Source of the DNA: Candidatus Parcubacteria bacterium
GTDB taxonomy: Bacteria; Patescibacteriota; Minisyncoccia; Minisyncoccales; PEYH01
Reading direction: 5' to 3'
DNA length: 50,247 bases
NCBI GenBank assembly: GCA_026395615.1
Contig: JAPLYH010000051.1
Coordinates: forward strand, 6,318-56,564
Shown: piece after piece, positions 2,795 to 35,683 of the stretch
Position numbering within the stretch: the stretch's first letter is position 1
How the letters are laid out: each line of letters opens with the position of its first letter
Notes under the pieces: generated by a model
What the model was told of the DNA's origin: nothing
Database searches by the model: none
The model's input: the letters and a program-made list of their open reading frames with translations, nothing else
Translations under genes and position numbers: made by a program

Positions 2795-4603
2795 TTACCG
2801 TTCACCGCCAAGGCCAGGCATTCGGAAACTACTACTTTGTGACTGTGTTTGTGCTGTGCTATTAGCGCTGATAGTTTGGGAAACCACCTGCTCACCTTCT
2901 TGGAGCCCATTTAAAATTTCAGTAAAAGAATCATTAGATAAGCCGATCTGAACCGATTGCTGTTGAGGAGAATTTTTTGAAACTACTCCCGAACTACTTT
3001 TTGCTATTTGGGATATATTATTTTTATCCAAAGGCAATATCTCTACGTAACTTATATCCCCCGATGATTTTACTGCTGAATTCGGAACCATTAATACATC
3101 TTGCCTTACATCTGTGATGACCGCGGCAGAAACACTCATACCAGGCCTTACTCTGTCATCTTGTGTATCAAAACCTATTTTAACGCCATACGATACCACT
3201 CCCTGAGAAATAGTTCCGAGAGTATCTACTTCCAATACTTCGCCAGTTATACTTAAACCATCAATTGCGTCAAAGGTAAGTGTCGCTTTTTGCCCGACCT
3301 TAATTTTCGCAATATCAACCTCATTGAGGGAAATTTCAGCTATTTTTTGCTTACTGATTAAGGTCGCAACAACTGCGCCGGAAGACACTGGTTCTCCTTT
3401 TTTAAAATTGATTTCTGCTACAATACCCTCAAAAGGCGCATAAGTGAAATAATCACTCAATTTTTCTTTGGCGTCTAATAAAGTATTCTCTCTCTGTTTA
3501 ATCGCCAACTCTTGCGTTCTAATATCAAGAGCATCAGCGCCTGCCTTTAAGTTAGCAAGCGATTCTGTTTTTTCAGCGATTGTCCTGTCAGTAGAGATTA
3601 TGGCTTCTTTATCATTTTCTATATTTGTTTTATAGGTAAGTAAATTAGATAAATGAGAATTGGTTTTGGAAGTATAGGTATTGAGATTAGATAAATGGGT
3701 ATCTGCTATGGCCTGAGGATTTAATCCGCGTTCAGTAAGCTTATCTTTATAAAACTGAATTAAATTATTAGCGCTCTTCACTGTTTCGGCAACATCTCTT
3801 GTTGTTTCGTAAGTTTGGCTTATCAACGACCCTATGACGGCCGTATCAGAAGTCCTGCTTGCAGATTTATAATCTGTAAAATTTTGGTTGTAGGAATCTC
3901 TGGCAACTTGATATTTAGAATCAGAATCACTGCTATACTCTAATGACTTATCATCATATTGTTTAACACTATCTCCATAATAATTAACGTTAGATTGGGT
4001 CCCGGAAAAATTATTTCCAAATAATATGCTTTGAAGACCTGTCATAATTGTTGGCAAATCTAAAAAAGTACTGGCCACTTCATTAAATCCGTCATCATAC
4101 GCTTTATTAAGATTATCTTCAGCATTTCTTTTTGATTCTTCGGCTTGAGCCAGAGAGTTTTCCGCCTGAAGAATTGAAAGATTATCCGCTGGTTGTTGTA
4201 ATTTTTCTAAAGATAACTTCGCGCTCTCCAAGTTTGCCTCCGCATCCCTAACTGACTTTTGGGCAACTTTTTCATCTAATTGTAATAGTAATGTCTTCGC
4301 CTTTACTTCTTGACCATTTATTACTCCAACATATACCGCATCACCGGAAGCATTGGCTTTTAAATCGACCTGATTTGAAGCAGATACCTGTCCGCTTCCA
4401 GAAACAGATGCAATTAAAGTTCCTTTTTCCACTGCTGCTAAAACATATTTTGTCTGATTATTATTTTTGCCACCAGCTGCTCTAATTGTAAAAAAAGCTA
4501 TTAAAATAATTGCCAATATAATGATACCGGCAATTAGTTTGTGCCTGGTCGCCCACTTAGATAATTTGTATAAAAAACTTTTAATCTTAGAAAATATTTT
4601 CAT
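2795..4603 (-). CDS. HlyD/MacA-like membrane-fusion (adaptor) protein
   Basis: 602 aa with an N-terminal TM anchor, a long coiled-coil-like middle and a C-terminal barrel-like segment. It is the first gene of the adaptor-ATPase-permease triad. Confidence 0.7.
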   Translation of the reverse strand: MKIFSKIKSFLYKLSKWATRHKLIAGIIILAIILIAFFTIRAAGGKNNNQTKYVLAAVEKGTLIASVSGSGQVSASNQVDLKANASGDAVYVGVINGQEVKAKTLLLQLDEKVAQKSVRDAEANLESAKLSLEKLQQPADNLSILQAENSLAQAEESKRNAEDNLNKAYDDGFNEVASTFLDLPTIMTGLQSILFGNNFSGTQSNVNYYGDSVKQYDDKSLEYSSDSDSKYQVARDSYNQNFTDYKSASRTSDTAVIGSLISQTYETTRDVAETVKSANNLIQFYKDKLTERGLNPQAIADTHLSNLNTYTSKTNSHLSNLLTYKTNIENDKEAIISTDRTIAEKTESLANLKAGADALDIRTQELAIKQRENTLLDAKEKLSDYFTYAPFEGIVAEINFKKGEPVSSGAVVATLISKQKIAEISLNEVDIAKIKVGQKATLTFDAIDGLSITGEVLEVDTLGTISQGVVSYGVKIGFDTQDDRVRPGMSVSAAVITDVRQDVLMVPNSAVKSSGDISYVEILPLDKNNISQIAKSSSGVVSKNSPQQQSVQIGLSNDSFTEILNGLQEGEQVVSQTISANSTAQTQSQSSSFRMPGLGGER

Positions 4604-9006: not shown

Positions 9007-10647
9007 CTACTGCTTGTCTGAACCAACCATCTCGGCTTCAAGCGCAGCTATGAGCTCGCCGCCTCGTTGTAGTAAGGCCTTGAGTTCTCCCGCCATAGCG
9101 CTTATTCGCTCTTGCCGAGTAGTTGTCGCCGGCTTCTTTGTTCTGATCCGACCGGAAACTGGTCTAGGCACTGGGACATCTCTTAGCCAGTGAAGCTTAG
9201 ACAGCCCTTCACACTTCTCCTGTGGAACCAACCAGCCCCAATACTTAAACCATGCGTACTGAGCACAACCGACTCTTACGCTACCGAACTTCTTAATCAA
9301 TACTCCGCTCGCTCCGCTCACCAGCCATCCTTCTCCTTCAGGATGTTTTTCCTGCGCTGCAGCACGAAGCGCGGCATATGCTTCGCAACGATTCCCTGGT
9401 AATCCAGCTGGGAAATCTATTGCTTCTCCTCCACTCCTCGCTCCCACCTGTTTACCAGCTGCCTTAGGCACCGGAACGACTCTCAACCAGTAGGTTCTTG
9501 CTCCGCCACCCTGTTCCTTCCTACCCTCTTCTGTAGTAAGCCAACCAGCACTTCTCAATCGCATGAAAAGCTTACTAGCTATTCGTTTTCCGAATCGTTC
9601 GCGCAAAACTCCGCTTGCCCTGCACACCAACCATCCTCCTTCAGGATGTTCTTCTTTTGCAGCAGCAAGAAGTATTGCATACGCCTCACGGTATTTCTCT
9701 GGTAGGTCAATAGGAGAATCCTTTACTTCTCCTATATCTCTTGGTTCCGTTCTTGGTTCCGTTCTTGGTTCCGTTCTTGGTTCCGTTCTTGGTTCCGTTC
9801 TTGGTTCCGTTCTTGGTTCCGCCCGCTTACCAGCTGTCTTAGATACTGGAACGTCCCTAAGCCAGTGGTCTTTACCTCTGCTTCCTTCTGCGTTCTTTGT
9901 TTCTTCTGAGGTCAACCAACCATTTCCCTTAAACCAGGCATAGTAGGTTGAAAACCCTTTACGGCCAAACTTACCAACCAAAACGCCCAATGCTCTTGGT
10001 ACTATCCATCCCCCTTCGGGATGTTTTCCTTGCGCTGCGGCACGAAGTGCGGCATATGCTTCACGGTATTTCTCCGGCAGACCAGCAGGAAAGTCACCTT
10101 CAATCGGATGAATCGACTGCCGTTGAACCACCGGAGTGATTGGTGAAACAGCTGGTGTTGTTGGTTTCTTGACAGCAAGAGCAGCCAGCTTACGTGGTAG
10201 AGCCAACTCTGGCATCTTTTCTGCTGTCGCTCGTGCCGAAGGTTGCAACCCAATTCCACTCAATTCTCGTAGTGATCTCTCTTGATGTAACGTCTCTATT
10301 CCCCTTGAACAAAGATGAGTTCCTCTGCCAGCAGGCCTCCTCTTAGCATTGACTGCTTCTCCTTCTCTTCTCCTCGGTCGTTCCGCATCGTCTGCGAATA
10401 GATTCACATTCGGTCTGTCTTGCCAAAGCCATCCAGTATCGCCTCTGATTCTTGCTGCTCTTGAGTGAATCTGGTAGGCCTCTTTGACCTCGGAAAGACT
10501 GACCGTAGGATGTTGATCTACTACTGCCGCCAACAAAGAATTCAGTGAAGCGTGGCTAATGCCGTCGCCCTTTACCCCGAGGATTAGCTGTTTGAATGAC
10601 TCATAGCCATCCAACTTAACTATCCCCACTCCCGTTCCGTTTCCCAT
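9007..10647 (-). CDS. GC-rich repeat protein of unknown function (three ~100-aa internal repeats plus an (EPRT)n linker)
   Basis: ATG at 10647 lies 7 nt after GAGGAGGG (10655-10662). The 546-aa product carries three copies of FPAGLPEKYREAYAALRAAAQ.KHPEGGW...GWL...HWLRDVPV and a C-terminal helical tail. It is clearly more GC-rich than its flanks. Confidence 0.7.
   Translation of the reverse strand: MGNGTGVGIVKLDGYESFKQLILGVKGDGISHASLNSLLAAVVDQHPTVSLSEVKEAYQIHSRAARIRGDTGWLWQDRPNVNLFADDAERPRRREGEAVNAKRRPAGRGTHLCSRGIETLHQERSLRELSGIGLQPSARATAEKMPELALPRKLAALAVKKPTTPAVSPITPVVQRQSIHPIEGDFPAGLPEKYREAYAALRAAAQGKHPEGGWIVPRALGVLVGKFGRKGFSTYYAWFKGNGWLTSEETKNAEGSRGKDHWLRDVPVSKTAGKRAEPRTEPRTEPRTEPRTEPRTEPRTEPRDIGEVKDSPIDLPEKYREAYAILLAAAKEEHPEGGWLVCRASGVLRERFGKRIASKLFMRLRSAGWLTTEEGRKEQGGGARTYWLRVVPVPKAAGKQVGARSGGEAIDFPAGLPGNRCEAYAALRAAAQEKHPEGEGWLVSGASGVLIKKFGSVRVGCAQYAWFKYWGWLVPQEKCEGLSKLHWLRDVPVPRPVSGRIRTKKPATTTRQERISAMAGELKALLQRGGELIAALEAEMVGSDKQ
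9743..9826. repeat. 12-bp tandem repeat ggttccgttctt, about 7 units
   Basis: Six perfect units plus a diverged seventh. It encodes EPRTEPRT... inside the 9007-10647 gene. Confidence 0.95.
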
Positions 10648-10736
10648 TTTACATCCCTCCTCTCGTTCTTGAGATTTGCTCTTGGCTTGCCGTTGATTCA
10701 GACATAAATTGGCAAAGAGCAAAAGAACATATTTTG

Positions 10737-26854: not shown

Positions 26855-29429
26855 TTAATCTAATATCTTAATTTTAAATTTCTTAGAATCTATTTGAATC
26901 CTGTCCCCTTTTTTAACTTCATCTTTCAACAGCGCTTCTGCTAAAACATTTTCCACATTATCTTGAATCACTCTCTTCAAATTTCTAGCTCCAAAAGTTA
27001 TATCATACCCAAGCTCAACAATTTTTTCTTTGAGCTCTTCTGTAATTATAAACTCAATATTCTTTTCTATCAACCCTTGTTGAATACTCTTAAGCATCAA
27101 TTGGGCAATATCTAAAAGATTTTCCTTGGTTAATGGCTTGAATAAAACCACTGCGTCAAATCTGTTTATAAACTCCGGACGAAATGTTTTTTCGTCAAAA
27201 AGTCTATTCAATAATTTTTCTTTTACAACGGAAAAATCCAAATTATTCCTAAGAGCATCTAAGATGACCTCATATCCAGCGTTGGAAGTTGCAATAATAA
27301 TAGTATTCTTAAAATCTACTTTTCTGCCCAAACCATCAGTGATATGGCCATCATCCAATACCTGCAAAAATAGATTCAAAATATTTGGATGGGCTTTCTC
27401 AATTTCATCCAACAAAACCAAGGAAAAAGGGTCTTCCCTGACAGGTGTTGTCAATAACCCTTCCTCTCCGGAAGAACCCATCAGGCGAGGAATATCTTCC
27501 TGGGACTGAAACTCCGACATATCAAGACGAATCATTTTTTCCTCTGAACCGAAATATATTTCAGCCAAAGCTTTTGATGTTTCTGTTTTTCCGACACCAG
27601 TAGGTCCTAAAAATAGAAATCCGCCCATAGGGCCTTTCCTTTCTTTTAATTTAGCTCTGGCACGACGCAAAGAAGTAGAAACTTCTCTCACCGCCTCTTC
27701 TTGATTTATGATTCTCTGATGAATAAGGTCCTCTAAATTAAGCAAAATCTCTTTTTCTTTTGTTTCAATTTTCCCAACAGGAATCTCTGTTTTGCGCGCA
27801 ACTATCCTATCTATATCTTCGGGTAAAACCCATTTACCTCTAACATTATCTGTTTTTATCATCGCTTCTTCTAAAACATTGATCGCTTTCTTGGGAAATG
27901 GCACATCAGCAATATATCTGCCAGTTAATTCAACAACTTGTCCTATGGCGGGATAAGTTATAAATCTATTGTATTTAGCTTCCAACCTGGGAGCTAATCT
28001 TTGCAAAATACGAATTGTTTCTTGCGGACTAGGTTCTTTAACTTCCACTTTTGAAAATAAATTTAAAACTGTCGGATTCTCTTCAATTTGTTTATGAAGA
28101 CCGGTATAACTCGCGATAGCTATAATTTTAAATTCAGCAAATTTTAGATAAGTAGCAAGAATTCCAGTTATATCAATTTTACCTGGGCCTATTTCGCCTC
28201 CGACAAAATTATGAAAATCGTCAATAACCAATATGACATTTTTTGCATTTATAACCTCTTTAAAAATTTTATCCAAAGTATCTTCAACTTGGTCCATGTT
28301 CTGCGTCTGGGCAAGCAACTGGGGAATTTGTAATTCTAAAACTCTATTGTAATTAACCGCTAAATAACTCTGACCCTTATTGCTCTTTATTAACTGCTAA
28401 ATAACTCTGACCCTTATTGCTCTTTATAGCTACGGCCTTAATAATATTTTCTATCCCTACTCCCGGCTCCCCGACCAAAAGAACATTATTCACTTCCGGG
28501 CTTGATAAAATTCTTTCAACCTGCTCTATTTCTTTTTCGTATCCAATAACGGTTTGCATTCCCTCGCTCAAAACTAATTGATTATAATCAATGGAATATT
28601 CATCTAAAGTAATTGTGTAGCTACTAGACCAACTCCTGCCTATACTCCCCTTTCGGCTTAAATTATCATAATCCCAAAATCTTTTCTTTTGTTTTTTTAT
28701 TTCCTCTCCCTCCTCCCACCACAGCACGGAGTTTCTGACATCGTCCGGCCTTAAATCCGCATCTAATAAAAATGCTCCCACTACTGGTTCATTTTTAGCT
28801 AAAGCCAAAAACATATCTCCTGGTTCAATATATTTATGTTTTTTAGCTTGAGATATTTCTAAAGCATCTTTAATCGCTTGCTCAAATTTTAAAGAATATA
28901 TACCCCGGCTAAATGCGTCTTGGACTTTTTGAACGGGTAAATTTTCTTCTAATTTGTGTTCTAATGACTTTATATCTAATAATAGGCGTAAAAGAATAAA
29001 ATTTAACTTGGGATTTTCTTTTAAAAGAAAATAGAGAAAGGCAGTTGCGCCTATCGGGAAAATATTTTTTCTTTTTGAAAATCTGATTGTGCTATCAAGA
29101 GCTCTTGCCGTATCTATGCTTAAAAATTCCGCTAAATTTACAACTGGCGTCATTTCTGGTACATCCGGATAAAAAAGCTTATTTTTGACAAAACTGACTA
29201 TTAAAAAACAAACAATACTAATTCCAAAGAATACCAAACCAAATCCCAATAAGAAATTGTATTCATTACTAGGCCCTGTTCCTAAGCTGCCGAATATGAA
29301 AAGTAGAACAAAACAAATTGAAACAATTAAAAAAACAATTTTAAACAACGATATTGCTGAAATAGCGAGCCCGCTTGAAATCCTCGTTGCCTTGAATATT
29401 CCTGTTTTTTGAAAATCAAAATTAAACAT
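26855..29429 (-). pseudogene. membrane-anchored Clp/Hsp100-type double-AAA+ protein, interrupted by a 37-bp tandem duplication
   Basis: The upstream ORF has 2 TM helices, Clp-N-like repeats and a degenerate Walker A, GEPGVGIENII. The downstream ORF has ILVIDDFH, an intact NBD2 (GPTGVGKTETSKALA, LVLLDEIEKAH) and sensor FRPEFINRFD. Removing one 37-bp copy joins ...SYLAVNYNRVLELQIPQLLAQTQNMDQVE... in frame. Confidence 0.75.
28354..28427. repeat. 37-bp tandem duplication (2 copies, 1 mismatch)
   Basis: taaccgctaaataactctgacccttattgctctttat at 28354-28390 and taactgctaa... at 28391-28427. Confidence 0.95.
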
Positions 29430-29812
29430 CAGAATAAAAATTTAATGCCAAAAGCAAAAAGGGCGATTATTATAACTGGCAAAAAAATCCAGCTTAAAAA
29501 TACAATCGCTCCGATTAAAAAAATAAAAACCTCAAATATCAAACCAACAAGAATAAGAACACTCCTTATAATCGCTCCCAATACTCTGGAAAAACTATTG
29601 GAAATAAATGTCTCGGCATATCTGGAAACGCTAAATCCCCTGCCATAATCCCATTGATAACTATGCCAAGGCGCTAAAAATGTTCTCAAAAGAGCGCCAA
29701 CTGAAAAGAAGCTTAAATAAAAGCGGAGGTAATTTTTCCACGCCTTGCCGAGTTCTTTGGGCACATCGTGAAAGTGCCAAATAAAATATTGAATAATAAC
29801 ATTTTGGCTCAT
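29429..29812 (-). CDS. small polytopic membrane protein
   Basis: 127 aa with 3-4 hydrophobic helices. Its stop overlaps the start of the Clp-like gene. Confidence 0.6.
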   Translation of the reverse strand: MSQNVIIQYFIWHFHDVPKELGKAWKNYLRFYLSFFSVGALLRTFLAPWHSYQWDYGRGFSVSRYAETFISNSFSRVLGAIIRSVLILVGLIFEVFIFLIGAIVFLSWIFLPVIIIALFAFGIKFLF

Positions 29813-29836
29813 TGGATAATTTTACCAAAATTATCC

Positions 29837-29870
29837 AAAAACAACAAAGCCACAGACCGTAGACCTGTGG
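29837..29870 (-). terminator. intrinsic terminator closing the island C transcript
   Basis: Minus strand reads ccacag-gtctacggt-ctgtgg followed by ctttgttgttttt. Confidence 0.6.
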
Positions 29871-30272
29871 ATTAATATTTTGATGCTTATTTAAAAAGGG
29901 AAAGCGAGAGCTTCTTCTAGCGCGAAACTTCCCCCTTGACCACTTTTACGGCTTGTGCAGCTAACGCGTGGTCAACTAGTATCTCGCTAGAATCAGCTCT
30001 CGCTTGTGGACCTCTGAATCCTGCAATTGGGTTTGTGCGGACCCACCAAGATCCTACTCTATCCTAGAAAAGGACAGAGGGGGCTATTCACAGTCACTAG
30101 AACGAGCATCAAACTCATCACTGAGTAGCTCTACTAGCCGTGTAAACCCCGGATTGATCGCGACAGCAACCTGTTTAGTACGAGAGGTACGCCCTGGGGT
30201 GCATGGGGATGGCACCCACAGTTCTCGCCCTTCTTAAACTTGGACAATTCGCCATTGCCCACCTCCTCCTTA
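29871..30272 (-). ncRNA. candidate structured RNA or dual-function transcript (island C), unassigned
   Basis: GC-rich block between a predicted promoter and terminator. It has a 100-nt hairpin (29904-29922 pairing 29985-30003) enclosing the helix 29936-29943/29968-29975. Only a 26-codon ORF lies at its 5' end. Confidence 0.4.
30175..30255 (-). CDS. possible 26-aa basic peptide at the 5' end of island C
   Basis: ATG lies 5-9 nt after AAGGAGGAGGTG. The peptide is MANCPSLRRARTVGAIPMHPRAYLSY. The only support is the ribosome-binding site. Confidence 0.3.
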   Translation of the reverse strand: MANCPSLRRARTVGAIPMHPRAYLSY

Positions 30273-30278
30273 ATTCAC

Positions 30279-30307
30279 ATTGTACACCCAACCTTGAAAA
30301 ATGTCAA
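30279..30307 (-). promoter_or_regulatory. near-consensus sigma70 promoter of island C
   Basis: Minus strand reads TTGACA (30307-30302), 17 nt, TACAAT (30284-30279). Confidence 0.6.
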
Positions 30308-30309
30308 GC

Positions 30310-30339
30310 AAAAAACCGCTTTCGAAAAAGCGATTTTTT
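30310..30339 (-). terminator. hairpin terminator after tRNA-Val
   Basis: cgcttt-cgaa-aaagcg flanked by A and T runs. It abuts the -35 box of island C. Confidence 0.6.
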
Positions 30340-30370
30340 GTGCCTGCACTGCGTAGCCTTAGCGAAGCAG

Positions 30371-30444
30371 TGGGCGTAGATGGACTCGAACCATCGACCT
30401 CTATCGTGTGAGGATAGCGCTCTAACCAACTGAGCCATACGCCC
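30371..30444 (-). tRNA. tRNA-Val (anticodon CAC)
   Basis: Manual cloverleaf: acceptor GGGCGTA/TACGCCC, anticodon stem CTATC/GATAG with loop CTCACAC, T-arm GATGG-TTCGAGT-CCATC. Confidence 0.9.
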
Positions 30445-30497
30445 CTTTGTTTATCCTACTACTTTAAACTTTGCCAGTAAAGATATAGAATAAGGCT

Positions 30498-32516: not shown

Positions 32517-32541
32517 ATTACGATGCCGGGTGGCGTAATTT
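32517..32541 (+). repeat. R element core (copy R3), left boundary of island D
   Basis: attacgatgccgggtggcgtaattt is identical over 25 nt to 33157-33181. Confidence 0.9.
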
Positions 32542-32554
32542 ATATAATTTATAT

Positions 32555-32599
32555 TTTAAAAGAAGTAGCGGGGACGCACACCGTGTGCACATCCCCGCT
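32555..32599 (-). terminator. intrinsic terminator of island D
   Basis: Minus strand reads agcgggga-tgt-gcaca-cgg-tgtgc-g-tccccgct followed by acttctttt. Confidence 0.65.
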
Positions 32600-32662
32600 C
32601 ATGTTCCGCCGCTCAATTACTCTAGTAGTTTCGCGAACTACTTCGTCAAATCTCGCAGTACG

Positions 32663-32872
32663 CTACGCCTTAGCCGTACAACGAGCCTCGGCCTTGATGC
32701 CGCAGCAACGAGCGACAGAATCCCCGAGATCACAATGCGAGACCTGCCGAACGCAACCGCTTCGCAGTTGAGCCTTAGCAGCTCGCATCTGATCGATCAA
32801 ACCACGTACACAACCCGGACCTGCTCGGATATTCATCGCCGATCTACCTCCTGAAAAAAGCTGCCGGATCAT
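32663..32872 (-). CDS. small Cys-rich protein (69 aa), island D gene 2
   Basis: GGGAGG lies 6 nt before the ATG. The product MIRQLFSGGRSAMNIRAGPGCVRGLIDQMRAAKAQLRSGCVRQVSHCDLGDSVARCCGIKAEARCTAKA has 7 Cys. First codon positions are G-rich, which is coding-like. Confidence 0.4.
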   Translation of the reverse strand: MIRQLFSGGRSAMNIRAGPGCVRGLIDQMRAAKAQLRSGCVRQVSHCDLGDSVARCCGIKAEARCTAKA

Positions 32873-32896
32873 AGTGCGCCTCCCATCGACGAGGGT

Positions 32897-33067
32897 CTAG
32901 GCCACCAGTCCAGCAACACAGCTCGTCGTTCGGGTCGTCTGAGTGGAAACGCCTCGGCTCATAGTGATCTTCATCACTGCCTTGTCGCTTCCAGCTCCAG
33001 CTTCACGTCCTGGCGTTGTCCGCATCGCAAACAACACAGGACTCGCTCGCGAGCCGTAGTTTCGCAT
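32897..33067 (-). CDS. possible 56-aa protein, island D gene 1
   Basis: GAAGGAGG (33075-33082) lies 7 nt before the ATG at 33067. The product is MRNYGSRASPVLFAMRTTPGREAGAGSDKAVMKITMSRGVSTQTTRTTSCVAGLVA. About 70 percent of first codon positions are purines. It is below the track's length cutoff. Confidence 0.3.
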   Translation of the reverse strand: MRNYGSRASPVLFAMRTTPGREAGAGSDKAVMKITMSRGVSTQTTRTTSCVAGLVA

Positions 33068-33109
33068 TATCTATCCTCCTTCGCCATAGAGAATCTCTTG
33101 GCTATTTTT

Positions 33110-33138
33110 ATAATACAAAAAATGACCCTTTGGGTCAA
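33110..33138 (-). promoter_or_regulatory. sigma70-like promoter of island D
   Basis: Minus strand reads TTGACC (33138-33133), 17 nt, TATTAT (33115-33110). Confidence 0.55.
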
Positions 33139-33155
33139 TATTTGTTCGATTTGTG

Positions 33156-33181
33156 AATTACGATGCCGGGTGGCGTAATTT
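33156..33181 (+). repeat. R element core (copy R4), right boundary of island D
   Basis: aattacgatgccgggtggcgtaattt starts one base after the DJ-1-family stop codon. Confidence 0.9.
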
Positions 33182-33709
33182 TTAAAGAGTGTGTAATTTT
33201 TCAATAATAGCCCGACTGAATTCATTAACAGCGGATGGGCCGTTGGCAGTAATAATGTTTCCATCACAAACTACTGGTTTATCAACATATTCCGCTCCAT
33301 TTTCTTGCAAAACTTTAATTGGTTTTTTATCCATTACACTTGACCAGATTGTCGCCTTCCTCCCTTGTAGAACACCCGCTGTTGCCAATATTGCCGGGGC
33401 AATACAAATTGCTGCCAATAATTTTTCCTGTTTAACCATTTCTTGAATAATATTTAAAACTTTCTCATCATCAATATATTTATAAGCTCCTGGGCCACCG
33501 ACAAACATTATTGCATCAAATTCAGATATATTTATTTCATCAAGCACAATATCTATATCTGCTTCTCCCCCGCTTCCGCCAATCGCTGTGCCTTTTTGTG
33601 AACTAACTGTACTCACTTCAAAACCAGCATTTATAAAAGCTTGTTTCGGAATAAAATATTCCTCATCCCGAAAATTTCTAAAAGCTATTATTATCGCAAT
33701 TTTCATCAC
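33182..33709 (-). CDS. DJ-1/PfpI family protein
   Basis: 175 aa with nucleophile-elbow Cys in LLAAICIAPAILATAG, plus DAIMFVGGPG. Confidence 0.85.
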   Translation of the reverse strand: MMKIAIIIAFRNFRDEEYFIPKQAFINAGFEVSTVSSQKGTAIGGSGGEADIDIVLDEINISEFDAIMFVGGPGAYKYIDDEKVLNIIQEMVKQEKLLAAICIAPAILATAGVLQGRKATIWSSVMDKKPIKVLQENGAEYVDKPVVCDGNIITANGPSAVNEFSRAIIEKLHTL

Positions 33710-35454: not shown

Positions 35455-35500
35455 ATATAAAGCGAGGATATTTTATTTTAAGATGCATCACGCAGGCCGA

Positions 35501-35676
35501 GCGGGCATGGTTCCCCGCGACAAAGAGGAAGAGCGAGGCAATAAGGTTTCAGGGCAGCTCCCGCAGGTCTGTTTGGCATGGTCCCCGAGCGAAGCGAGGG
35601 GCAAACAGACCGAGGGACGCAGGCTGACAAATCTCGCTGGAGATTTGGACAGCCAGTGACCTGAAATCTTATTGCC
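35501..35676 (-). ncRNA. candidate structured RNA (island E), unassigned; strand uncertain
   Basis: A 17-bp closing helix (35537-35553/35660-35676) encloses a long hairpin (35566-35575/35602-35611 with a cccc/gggg apex) and a second hairpin (35623-35653, 8-bp stem with a 4-nt loop). A further stem lies at 35501-35518. There is no RBS-preceded ORF. Confidence 0.35.
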
Positions 35677-35683
35677 GAGCGGC

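What the first reader, a model, noticed from the sequence alone, without database searches (positions are those of the whole stretch)
29837..30307. Island C: a complete promoter-to-terminator GC-rich unit next to tRNA-Val, with a 26-codon ORF and about 300 nt of dense RNA helices
A GC-rich block of about 430 bp lies between tRNA-Val and a membrane-protein gene. It is organised as a stand-alone minus-strand transcription unit. The promoter is TTGACA (30307-30302), 17 nt, TACAAT (30284-30279). Next comes AAGGAGGAGGTG and an ATG at 30255 that opens only a 26-codon Arg-rich ORF. About 300 nt without any ORF follow, ending at a hairpin plus U-tract (29837-29870). The untranslated part is strongly self-complementary. 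The arms gcgagagcttcttctagcg (29904-29922) and cgctagaatcagctctcgc (29985-30003) pair 9+7 bp around a 3x3 internal loop. They enclose a second 8-bp helix, ttgaccac/gtggtcaa. A gggtgc/gcaccc stem sits inside the small ORF. I could not find the hallmark motifs of RNase P, tmRNA, SRP or 6S RNA. GC-rich intergenic blocks in AT-rich genomes are a classic signature of structured non-coding RNAs, so this is a candidate new ncRNA or a dual-function small-protein RNA.
Basis: partly seen in the sequence, partly recalled or inferred. Interest (0 to 1): 0.7.

Follow-up and report, generated by a model that had tools for sequence, protein, structure and literature searches.

The report
Strain-variable structured RNA cassette, Parcubacteria
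A 430-base GC-rich insert next to a tRNA gene in an uncultured Parcubacteria genome is a self-contained unit that most likely makes a tightly folded RNA of no known family, but it occurs only in one narrow lineage and its function is unknown.

Summary
These are the GC-rich block, an 11/12 sigma-70 promoter, a Shine-Dalgarno (SD) site with a 26-codon ORF, the nested helices and the terminator. No Rfam 15 family matches, even at E<=10. The minus strand folds far better than shuffles (z = -7.7); the plus strand gives z = -3.4. One diverged copy (L010, 67% identity in the RNA body) keeps the promoter, several helices and strong folding (z = -5.1). Placing the same substitutions at random columns removes the excess stability (0/400 in both directions). 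Conservation follows nucleotides rather than the reading frame.

The island is not a housekeeping RNA or a leader. It fills a strain-variable slot between two terminators. Relatives carry a 78-aa ORF, a HigB/HigA-like pair or other ORFs there, and a strain whose neighbouring gene is 98% identical lacks it. The terminator hairpin belongs to the conserved framework. The downstream gene has its own leaderless-type promoter.

Only two sequence variants were found, so covariation cannot be tested statistically.

Verdict: a real, unclassified, accessory structured-RNA gene. The mini-ORF is probably incidental or regulatory. Interest is moderate.

The parts
30370..30444 (-). tRNA-Val(CAC). This is the upstream neighbour (context) and the left anchor of the variable slot.
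   Evidence: ARAGORN. Rfam tRNA model, 71.1 bits.
30309..30340 (-). Hairpin plus T-run that terminates tRNA-Val. It is left-hand framework shared with L010, L003 and L032.
   Evidence: Inverted repeat I2, 14-nt arms, 93% complementary. The same element precedes different payloads in L003 and L032.
29879..30309 (-). Island C cassette, the variable payload of about 431 bp (edges good to about 5 nt).
   Evidence: Left edge: similarity to L032 ends after AAAGCGGTTTT. Right edge: contigs L009, L037 and L038 begin at ATATTAATCCACAGG, and L011 shares only AATCCACAG onward.
30279..30307 (-). Sigma-70-type promoter, TTGACA-17-TACAAT. The predicted transcription start is near 30272.
   Evidence: 11 of 12 matches. 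L010 has TTGACC-17-TATAGT. The -10 region aligns with that of the 78-aa cassettes. The start site is inferred.
30260..30271 (-). Shine-Dalgarno-like purine block, AAGGAGGAGGTG.
   Evidence: Read from the sequence. GGAGGTGGG is retained in L010. It can pair with the ACCUCUCG block at -9.8 (window) and -11.5 (L010) kcal/mol.
30175..30255 (-). 26-codon mini-ORF, MANCPSLRRARTVGAIPMHPRAYLSY, with its stop codon.
   Evidence: L010 has a 23-codon counterpart, MMASCPRRASNVGVDPQHPKTPR. The C-terminus is not conserved. The block ACCTCTCGTA is coding in the window but lies after the stop in L010.
30241..30261 (-). Hairpin Ha, which encloses the start codon (UGGGCAAU/AUUGUCCA).
   Evidence: MFE fold. The local fold is -9.6 kcal/mol in the window and -5.7 in L010, with one-sided changes.
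30197..30217 (-). Hairpin Hb, GGGUGC/GCACCC, with a conserved C-rich loop AUCCCC.
   Evidence: Local folds are -13.7 and -13.8 kcal/mol in the two variants. L010 gains two pairs.
30179..30188 (-). Conserved block ACCUCUCGUA, which resembles an anti-SD sequence.
   Evidence: Invariant in A1. Duplex with the SD block computed.
30080..30150 (-). Central multi-stem domain He.
   Evidence: Sequence identity is only about 59% here. Both variants still fold to -27.2 and -27.3 kcal/mol with a closing G/C helix.
30011..30080 (-). Two hairpins. About 42 nt of this stretch (CCUUUUCUAGG...CACAAACC) is missing from L010, so it is an expansion segment.
   Evidence: Alignments A1 and A2. MFE fold.
29894..30015 (-). 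Long 3' hairpin Hh. Its base is AAGCGAGAGC/GCUCUCGCUU, and a purine loop GGGG(G)AAG stays unpaired. The inner ttgaccac/gtggtcaa helix occurs only in the window.
   Evidence: Inverted repeat I1. Local folds are -54.5 (window) and -31.2 (L010) kcal/mol. There is one G-C to A-U double change and one C-G to U-G change.
29890..29911 (-). Longest invariant block, GCUCUCGCUUUCCCUUUUUAAA. The pyrimidine tract pairs with a 5' purine segment and closes the whole fold.
   Evidence: 22 of 22 identical to L010. It closes the fold in the MFE structures of both variants. Duplex energies.
29838..29873 (-). Framework terminator: AAUCCACAGG...CUGUGG hairpin plus a T-tract. The island transcript should end here.
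   Evidence: The same hairpin is present, and duplicated, in L011, which has no island.
29810..29847 (-). The downstream gene's own promoter (TTGTTG-17-TGGTAAAAT) and a 12+12 palindrome. The ATG at 29812 lies 6 nt after the -10 box.
   Evidence: Palindrome I3. The spacing is conserved in L001, L003, L005, L010 and L011. Promoter function and a leaderless mRNA are inferred.

Best explanation
Island C is an accessory, strain-variable cassette of about 431 bp (29879-30309). It sits in an expression slot between the tRNA-Val terminator and the terminator/promoter framework of the 127-aa/ClpB-like operon. From its own near-consensus promoter it should give a minus-strand transcript of about 430 nt that ends at the framework terminator.

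The functional product is most likely the folded RNA itself. Predicted features:
- A multi-branched fold closed by pairing between a 5' purine segment and the invariant 3' tract CUUUCCCUUUUU.
- A start-codon hairpin.
- A hairpin with a C-rich loop (AUCCCC).
- A variable central domain.
- A long 3' hairpin with an unpaired GGGGAAG loop.

The proposed mode of action is inferred, not shown. Three purine segments are the SD-like block, AAGANGGG and the GGGGAAG loop. Three C/U-rich segments are the AUCCCC loop, ACCUCUCG and the 3' tract. These could form alternative or tertiary pairings within the RNA. As in C-rich-loop regulatory RNAs, they could also pair with ribosome-binding regions of mRNAs.

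The SD site plus 23-26-codon ORF is probably a by-product of the slot's 5' region or a cis-regulatory feature, not a conserved peptide gene.
For: Autonomous unit:
- The promoter scores 11/12 and is conserved in L010.
- The upstream tRNA has its own terminator.
- In every relative, with or without the island, the downstream gene has a -10 box 6 nt before its ATG and no SD site.

Structure:
- The window RNA body gives z = -7.7 and L010 gives z = -5.1. The plus strand gives z = -3.4.
- Controls are much weaker: the 78-aa coding cassette gives z = +0.68, the L032 cassette -3.2 and a GC-rich coding stretch -2.5.

Selection for structure:
- Placing the 96 observed substitutions at random aligned columns gives -92.0 +/- 5.9 kcal/mol, against -121.1 for the real L010.
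- The reverse test gives -123.1 +/- 5.5, against -160.6 for the real window sequence. None of 400 simulations reached the observed value in either direction.
- Whole hairpins are gained or lost cleanly.
- Domains keep their folding energy although the sequence diverges.

Against a coding role:
- ACCTCTCGTA is conserved but lies inside the ORF in one variant and after the stop in the other.
- ATCCCCA is conserved across a possible +1/-1 frame shift.
- Most codon differences change the amino acid.
- No gene caller predicted any ORF here in six assemblies.

No known family: Rfam at gathering scores and at E<=10, plus ARAGORN.
Against: - Only two sequence variants exist, so no statistically valid covariation test is possible. 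Just 2-6 double changes were seen, and 20-26 single-sequence MFE pairs do not carry over to the other variant.
- Overall identity of the RNA body (67%) is barely above third-codon-position identity of the adjacent gene (62%). The middle third is at 59%.
- Part of the middle may not be homologous, which would weaken the substitution-placement test.
- No expression data are available.
- The island is absent from close relatives and from every large collection scanned. It is therefore dispensable and could be a recently acquired selfish or decaying element.
- The SD site and ATG are retained in both variants.
Confidence: 0.5

Rival explanations
1. It is a small-protein gene or a dual-function RNA. 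The 23-26-aa peptide (MA[NS]CP..RRA..VG..P.HP) is translated and functional, and the structured remainder acts as a stabilising or regulatory 3' region.
For: - A strong SD site lies 6 nt before the ATG in both variants.
- The N-terminal half of the peptide is partly conserved.
- The 6-nt indel is in frame, and the frame is the same again at the shared His-Pro.
- Relatives use the same slot and a homologous promoter for a 78-aa ORF.
Against: - The ORF length is what a random sequence after any ATG would give.
- The C-terminus and the stop position are not conserved.
- Conserved nucleotide blocks ignore the reading frame.
- Nearly all codon differences change the amino acid.
- The peptide matches no Pfam or PADLOC model.
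- The start codon lies in a hairpin, and the SD site can be sequestered.
Confidence: 0.2
2. It is a decaying remnant of a foreign, GC-rich cassette that once coded for protein or belonged to a mobile element. It has no current function, and the folding is a side effect of its composition or history.
For: - The slot holds protein-coding payloads in relatives: a 78-aa ORF, a HigB/HigA-like pair, a 129-aa ORF and a 100-aa ORF.
- The island is rare and dispensable.
- Its middle third diverges at about the neutral rate.
- The same MAG carries a 37-bp duplication that splits its ClpB-like gene.
Against: - Dinucleotide-controlled z-scores of -7.7 and -5.1 persist in two variants that differ at 33% of aligned sites. 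Random placement of the same changes abolishes the excess stability.
- A promoter scoring 10-11 of 12 is kept in both variants.
- No frame shows protein-like conservation between the variants.
- The sequence is identical in five assemblies.
Confidence: 0.13
3. It is a type I toxin-antitoxin-like or other RNA-based selfish or defence module. The heavily folded mRNA uses 5'-3' fold-back pairing to restrain translation of a small toxic peptide, or the RNA itself is the effector.
For: - The same slot carries a type II toxin-antitoxin pair (Gp49/HigB-like plus HTH_3) in L011-L014 and L017.
- The locus is an insertion hot spot: L001 and L032 have a disrupted tRNA-Val with a nested replacement copy.
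- The 5' purine and 3' pyrimidine closing helix recalls the fold-back inhibition of hok mRNA.
- The island is present in some close strains and absent in others.
Against: - The peptide is basic and polar, not a hydrophobic membrane toxin.
- No antisense promoter was found inside the island.
- No second small RNA gene is present.
- There is no PADLOC match.
Confidence: 0.1
4. It is a cis-regulatory leader, such as a riboswitch or attenuator, that controls read-through into the 127-aa/ClpB-like operon.
For: It is on the same strand as the operon and directly upstream of it. It ends in an intrinsic terminator 25 nt before the ATG at 29812.
Against: - The operon is intact and syntenic in relatives that carry quite different payloads or none.
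- The terminator and a -10 box 6 nt before the ATG are framework elements present regardless of payload.
- The gene has no SD site, so a read-through transcript would be poorly translated (inference).
Confidence: 0.04

Closest known systems
Staphylococcus aureus RNAIII (Rfam RF00503), a dual-function regulatory RNA that encodes the 26-aa delta-haemolysin
   Same: - It has its own promoter and an intrinsic terminator.
- It is several hundred nucleotides long and folds into many hairpins.
- Long-range pairing joins its 5' and 3' regions.
- It carries a small ORF with an SD site near the 5' end.
- It has unpaired C-rich hairpin loops.

These RNAIII features come from general knowledge.
   Different: - There is no sequence or covariance-model similarity.
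- The island's peptide is not amphipathic and is poorly conserved.
- No quorum-sensing context is present.
- The host is a Parcubacteria MAG.
- No targets are known.
C-rich-loop sRNAs of low-GC Gram-positive bacteria (RsaE/RoxS type; UCCC motif, Geissmann et al. 2009, PMC2790875)
   Same: A conserved unpaired C-rich motif (AUCCCC loop, CUUUCCC tract) lies in an AT-rich genome that uses GGAGG-type ribosome-binding sites. The RNA ends in an intrinsic terminator.
   Different: - The island is two to four times longer.
- No Rfam family matches.
- It is strain-specific rather than conserved across a genus.
- Target pairing was not tested. I saw only the title and abstract of the paper in the search listing.
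hok/Sok-type type I toxin mRNAs
   Same: The transcript is about 400 nt and compactly folded. Its 3' end pairs with the 5' translation-initiation region. It is an accessory element found in variable loci.
   Different: There is no hydrophobic toxin ORF, no antisense RNA promoter and no homology.
Orphan GC-rich intergenic structured-RNA candidates from the Breaker-laboratory GC-IGR surveys (for example PMC6429828 and PMC11109978)
   Same: The discovery signature is the same: a long GC-rich intergenic region in an AT-rich genome with predicted structure and no known family.
   Different: Those motifs are defined by covariation across many representatives. This one has two variants and sits in a hypervariable cassette slot.

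Membership tests
Known large or housekeeping RNAs in Rfam 15 (RNase P, tmRNA, SRP, 6S, ROOL, GOLLD, OLE, HEARO, raiA and others) | A match to the family covariance model at or near its gathering score. | tested here: not met
   No hit in 29837-30310 at gathering scores. None at E<=10 with lax filters on 29700-30460. None at E<=0.5 across the window. ARAGORN found no tmRNA.
Housekeeping RNA of any kind | Present in close relatives. | tested here: inconclusive
   It is absent from this locus in relatives whose neighbouring genes are 73-98% identical. Whether it lies elsewhere in those genomes could not be checked. A GTDB scan with a 19-mer from the most conserved block gave only chance hits.
Riboswitch or cis-regulatory leader of the downstream operon | No independent promoter lies between the element and the regulated gene. 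| tested here: not met
   TGGTAAAAT lies 6 nt before the ATG, preceded by TTGTTG at a 17-nt spacing. This is conserved in loci with every kind of payload. Promoter activity itself is inferred.
Riboswitch or cis-regulatory leader of the downstream operon | The element occurs together with the regulated gene across relatives. | tested here: not met
   The 127-aa/ClpB-like operon is conserved in all relatives. Apart from the window's own strain (L034-L036, L039), the island was seen whole only in L010, with 3' traces in L009.
Type I toxin-antitoxin | A small hydrophobic toxin ORF. | tested here: not met
   The peptide MANCPSLRRARTVGAIPMHPRAYLSY is basic and polar. The only hydrophobic ORF (20 aa, 30121..30059) is not kept in L010.
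Type I toxin-antitoxin | An antisense or adjacent small RNA gene with its own promoter. | tested here: inconclusive
   The consensus scan found no plus-strand promoter inside the island, only a 9/12 site at its 5' edge. Weak promoters cannot be excluded.
Type I toxin-antitoxin | A compact mRNA with 5'-3' fold-back pairing. | tested here: met
   A closing helix between a 5' purine segment and the 3' CUUUCCCUUUUU tract appears in the MFE folds of both variants.
Dual-function sRNA (RNAIII-like) | An autonomous promoter, an intrinsic terminator and a small ORF with an SD site, all kept in homologs. | tested here: met
   Only two variants are available.
Dual-function sRNA (RNAIII-like) | The peptide is under purifying selection. 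| tested here: inconclusive
   About 12 of 23 residues are shared. The C-terminus and stop differ. Conserved nucleotide blocks are independent of the frame. Two sequences are too few for a dN/dS estimate.
Dual-function sRNA (RNAIII-like) | Homology to RF00503. | tested here: not met
   No Rfam hit.
Transposable element, MITE or integron cassette | Terminal inverted repeats, target-site duplication or an attC-like site at the ends. | tested here: not met
   No flanking direct or inverted repeats of 9 nt or more were found around 29879-30309. The tRNA 3' end and the framework hairpin are not duplicated in the window.
Transposable element, MITE or integron cassette | Multiple copies. | tested here: inconclusive
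   There is a single copy in the 50-kb window. The rest of the genome is not available. Several assemblies break at the cassette edge, which is consistent with strain variation or with repeats.
Structured ncRNA (generic criteria) | Statistically significant covariation supports the helices. | not testable with these tools
   Only two variants were found. The indirect test of substitution placement supports selection for structure.

The most novel reading that the evidence does not exclude
Island C and the second island (32545-33156) could be examples of an undescribed class of RNA-only accessory cassettes in Parcubacteria. Such cassettes would be self-contained, GC-rich and strongly folded transcripts that come and go at intrinsic-terminator sites, in the same slots that also receive toxin-antitoxin pairs. 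They might act as RNA-based selfish, defence or regulatory elements. The second island is equally GC-rich, has its own promoter and SD site, folds strongly on one strand and is flanked by a duplicated terminator hairpin.
Probability: 0.15. Interest if true: 0.7.

Novelty: new member of a known kind. Interest (0 to 1): 0.4.

Why it matters
Non-coding RNA content is largely uncharted in Candidate Phyla Radiation (CPR) bacteria, the large group of small-genome uncultured bacteria that includes Parcubacteria. If this is a real RNA gene, it shows that these reduced genomes still exchange strain-specific structured RNAs at defined slots next to tRNA genes and terminators.

It also gives a concrete case of about 400 nt in which structure is maintained through 33% sequence divergence. 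That case can be tested by metatranscriptomics and by mining raw reads. The practical value is limited for now, because the RNA is confined to one lineage and no function can be assigned.

Tried and rejected
- **Known RNA families.** Rfam at gathering scores and at permissive E-values, plus ARAGORN, gave nothing. My own inspection found no RNase P P4 motif and no tmRNA T-arm or acceptor motif.
- **Homolog searches by DNA pattern.** I used 19-mers from the 22-nt invariant block.
  - JGI metagenomes: 10 hits, all chance.
  - GTDB genomes: 4 hits, all chance and none from CPR organisms.
  - Five IMG/VR scans with four patterns: only chance hits.
  - blastn against phages and plasmids: no match.
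- **Homolog searches by synteny.** I started from the 127-aa and 259-aa neighbour proteins and made 11 contig look-ups. These gave one diverged copy (L010), one 3' fragment (L009) and identical copies in four more samples (L034-L036, L039).
- **Spurious-ORF trick.** None of eight island ORFs is in the 15-billion-protein collection. Non-ATG starts may have been translated differently there, so this negative result is soft.
- **Protein-family searches.** Island ORFs and neighbouring cassette proteins had no informative Pfam, PADLOC or NCBIfam hits, apart from the Gp49/HTH_3 pair in L011.
- **Repeats.** The island has no other copy in the window, no flanking repeats and no att-like duplication.
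- **Reverse-transcriptase context.** I looked for a retron or defence-associated reverse transcriptase. The GC-rich 571-aa ORF at 9007-10722 is a low-complexity protein, not a reverse transcriptase.
- **Leader or riboswitch reading.** Rejected because of the framework promoter and the variable payloads.
- **Literature.** Two full-text searches found nothing on such RNAs in Patescibacteria/CPR.
- **Covariance model.** I did not build one.
Full report
**1.

The block at about 29880-30310 has roughly 51% G+C, against 36.7% for the window. On the minus strand the features run in this order:
- tRNA-Val(CAC) at 30370-30444.
- The tRNA's own hairpin terminator at 30309-30340.
- An 11/12 sigma-70 promoter, TTGACA-17-TACAAT, at 30307..30279.
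- AAGGAGGAGGTG at 30271-30260.
- An ATG at 30255 that opens a 26-codon ORF ending at 30175.
- About 300 nt without an ORF of note.
- A 9-bp hairpin plus T-tract at 29870..29838.

The 28-nt inverted repeat lies at 29902-29929 / 29978-30005, the inner ttgaccac/gtggtcaa helix lies inside it, and the gggtgc/gcaccc stem lies at 30197-30217.

**2. The folding is not due to composition**

| Sequence | MFE (kcal/mol) | z vs dinucleotide shuffles |
|---|---|---|
| Island, minus strand, with terminator | -173.5 | -7.0 |
| Island, minus strand, body only | -160.6 | -7.7 |
| Island, plus strand | -138.8 | -3.4 |
| Control: 78-aa coding cassette in the same slot (L003) | -71.6 | +0.68 |
| Control: GC-rich payload of L032 | -150.3 | -3.2 |
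| Control: GC-rich coding stretch of the window | -127.3 | -2.5 |

The difference between the two strands points to a minus-strand RNA.

**3. It is not a known RNA**

Rfam 15 gives no hit at gathering scores. It gives none at E<=10 on the island alone and none at E<=0.5 over the whole window. ARAGORN finds no tmRNA.

**4. Context: a hypervariable slot**

The source is a Candidatus Parcubacteria MAG. The gene order rplJ-rplL, a 259-aa gene on the opposite strand, tRNA-Val, [slot], a 127-aa gene and a ClpB-like gene is conserved in relatives. The slot content is not.

| Loci | Identity of neighbouring protein to the window | Slot content |
|---|---|---|
| L001-L004 | 77% and 73% (127-aa protein) | 78-aa ORF |
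| L011-L014, L017 | 74-75% (127-aa protein) | Gp49/HigB-like plus HTH_3 pair |
| L005-L007 | 60% (127-aa protein) | 129-aa ORF on the other strand |
| L032 | 98% (259-aa protein) | GC-rich 100-aa ORF on the other strand |
| L010 | 83% (127-aa protein) | Island C, diverged copy |
| L034-L036, L039 | 100% (127-aa protein) | Island C, identical copy |

Several assemblies break exactly at the right-hand edge, at ATATTAATCCACAGG (L009, L037, L038).

In L011 the CCACAG...CTGTGG hairpin, its T-tract and the start of the 127-aa gene are duplicated on both sides of the toxin-antitoxin pair. The "terminator" of the finding is therefore framework, not part of the island.

The framework also carries TTGTTG-17-TGGTAAAAT, with the -10 box 6 nt before the ATG and no SD site, in all relatives. 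I infer that the 127-aa gene has its own promoter and a leaderless mRNA. This rules out a riboswitch or leader role for the island.

The island's -10 region aligns with that of the 78-aa cassettes. The promoter may therefore belong to the slot and only the transcribed payload may be exchanged.

**5. The homolog**

L010:44-447 matches the island with nhmmer E = 4e-29.

| Region (window vs L010) | Identity |
|---|---|
| RNA body, aligned columns (122 gap columns excluded) | 67% |
| 5' third | 71% |
| Middle third | 59% |
| 3' third | 72% |
| Third codon positions of the adjacent 127-aa gene | 62% |
| Framework | 90% |

Conservation comes in blocks. The longest is the 22-nt GCTCTCGCTTTCCCTTTTTAAA. 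Others are AAGCGAGAGCTG, ACCTCTCGTA, CTAGTGACT, TCAAGGGG and GCACCCCA.

Two whole hairpins of the window are cleanly absent from L010, including the ttgaccac/gtggtcaa helix.

L010 also folds strongly, with z = -5.1 for the body. Domain by domain, the folding energies compare as follows:
- Hb hairpin: -13.7 (window) and -13.8 (L010) kcal/mol.
- Central domain: -27.2 and -27.3 kcal/mol, despite low identity.
- Start-codon hairpin: retained in both.
- Long 3' hairpin: retained in both.

Both MFE folds are closed by pairing of a 5' purine segment with the invariant 3' pyrimidine tract.

**6. Test for selection on structure**

I kept the alignment, the indels and the numbers and kinds of substitutions, and placed the 96 substitutions at random aligned columns.
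- L010-like sequences derived from the window fold to -92.0 +/- 5.9 kcal/mol. That is about the level of shuffled L010 sequence. The real L010 reaches -121.1 (0 of 400 simulations as low).
- The reverse test gives -123.1 +/- 5.5, against -160.6 for the real window sequence (0 of 400).

Divergence of this size would have erased the structure unless the structure was maintained. One caveat applies. Parts of the middle may be non-homologous replacements rather than substitutions. Even so, both variants are independently highly structured.

Classical covariation cannot be assessed with two sequences. RNAalifold shows 6 double changes among 70 pairs. Of the single-sequence MFE pairs, 20-26 do not carry over to the other variant.

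**7. The mini-ORF**

L010 has MMASCPRRASNVGVDPQHPKTPR, against MANCPSLRRARTVGAIPMHPRAYLSY in the window.

For a peptide:
- The SD site and ATG are kept.
- The indel is in frame.
- The N-terminal half is partly shared.

Against a peptide:
- The C-terminus and stop differ.
- ACCTCTCGTA is coding in one variant and follows the stop in the other.
- ATCCCCA is conserved but may be read in a shifted frame.
- Almost every codon difference changes the amino acid.
- A length of 23-26 codons is what a random sequence after an ATG would give.
- No gene caller annotated an ORF there.

I rate a functional peptide at about 0.2.

**8. Mechanism (inferred)**

The conserved unpaired or alternatively paired elements fall into two groups.
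- Three purine segments: the SD block, AAGANGGG and the GGGG(G)AAG loop.
- Three C/U-rich segments: the AUCCCC loop, ACCUCUCG and CUUUCCCUUUUU.

Computed duplexes, window first and L010 second:
- SD block with ACCUCUCG: -9.8 and -11.5 kcal/mol.
- SD block with the 3' tract: -12.0 and -11.1 kcal/mol.
- C-rich loop with G-rich loop: -9.9 and -10.0 kcal/mol.
- G-rich loop with the 3' tract: -14.6 and -12.7 kcal/mol.

This fits a compact fold, possibly with tertiary contacts, in which access to the ribosome-binding site is gated. It also fits a regulatory RNA whose C-rich elements pair with ribosome-binding sites of other mRNAs, as in RNAIII or RsaE-type RNAs. None of this has been demonstrated.

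**9. Distribution and rivals**

All large scans were negative. The element is rare and dispensable. The rival explanations, with my confidence in each, are:
- Peptide gene or dual-function RNA: 0.2.
- Decaying foreign remnant: 0.13.
- Type I toxin-antitoxin-like or RNA-based selfish module: 0.1.
- Leader of the downstream operon: 0.04.

**10. Verdict**

This is a real, unclassified, accessory structured-RNA unit. The main qualification is that the island is a strain-variable cassette with only two known variants, not a conserved ncRNA class. Interest is 0.4.

Noticed in passing
window 32517-33184 (island body 32545-33156, minus strand): A second GC-rich island (up to 60% G+C) lies between the DJ-1/PfpI gene and the L10 leader. 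It is flanked by a 28-nt direct repeat, ATTACGATGCCGGGTGGCGTAATTT, which is itself a hairpin. It has a promoter-like TTGACC...TATTAT, a GAAGGAGG site with an ATG (56-aa ORF), a second AGGAGG site with an ATG (57-69-aa Cys-rich ORF), and a strong terminator. It folds strongly on one strand only: z = -5.8 on minus and -2.3 on plus. It has no similarity to Island C, no Rfam hit and no homologs for the 69-aa ORF. The same slot differs among L001, L003, L005 and L011.
   Followed up: partly
L001:3225-3505 and L032 (reverse complement of 1-1000): In two relatives the tRNA-Val(CAC) gene next to the slot is interrupted after its D-arm by an insert of about 230 nt. The insert contains a complete second tRNA-Val(CAC). 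ARAGORN calls only the nested copy in L001 and calls none in L032, where a run of N interrupts the nested copy. This suggests an insertion that brings its own replacement tRNA and marks the locus as an integration hot spot.
   Followed up: partly
L011:3070-3260 and 3930-4010: The HigB/HigA-like cassette is flanked by a direct duplication of the framework: the AATCCACAG...CTGTGG hairpin, the T-tract, the promoter and the first few dozen nt of the 127-aa gene. Together with the 28-nt repeat around the second island, this suggests that insertions in this lineage occur at intrinsic terminators and duplicate them.
   Followed up: partly
window 28358-28394: A 37-bp tandem duplication (aaagagcaataagggtcagagttatttagcNgttaat, twice) splits the ClpB-like gene into 350-aa and 487-aa ORFs. 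Logan assemblies that are otherwise nearly identical have an intact 845-aa gene. This is either a recent pseudogenisation or an assembly artefact.
   Followed up: yes
window 29812-29838: A perfect 12+12 palindrome, TTGGATAATTTT-GGT-AAAATTATCCAA, overlaps the -10 box and the start codon of the 127-aa/ClpB-like operon. It could be an operator for a repressor. It does not match the CIRCE, CtsR or HAIR consensus sequences as I recall them.
   Followed up: no
window 35455-35683 (minus strand): An intergenic stretch of about 230 nt with 61% G+C lies between the FtsX-like permease and PCMT genes. By eye it contains a long inverted repeat (GGCAATAAGATTTCAGG ... CCTGAAACCTTATTGCC). It has no Rfam hit.
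   Followed up: no
window 9007-10722: A GC-rich (53-57%) 571-aa ORF contains tandem repeats (GGAACCAAGAAC units in the mRNA). Its only Pfam hit is a weak, low-complexity one. It lies beside the DNA polymerase III gamma/tau gene.
   Followed up: partly
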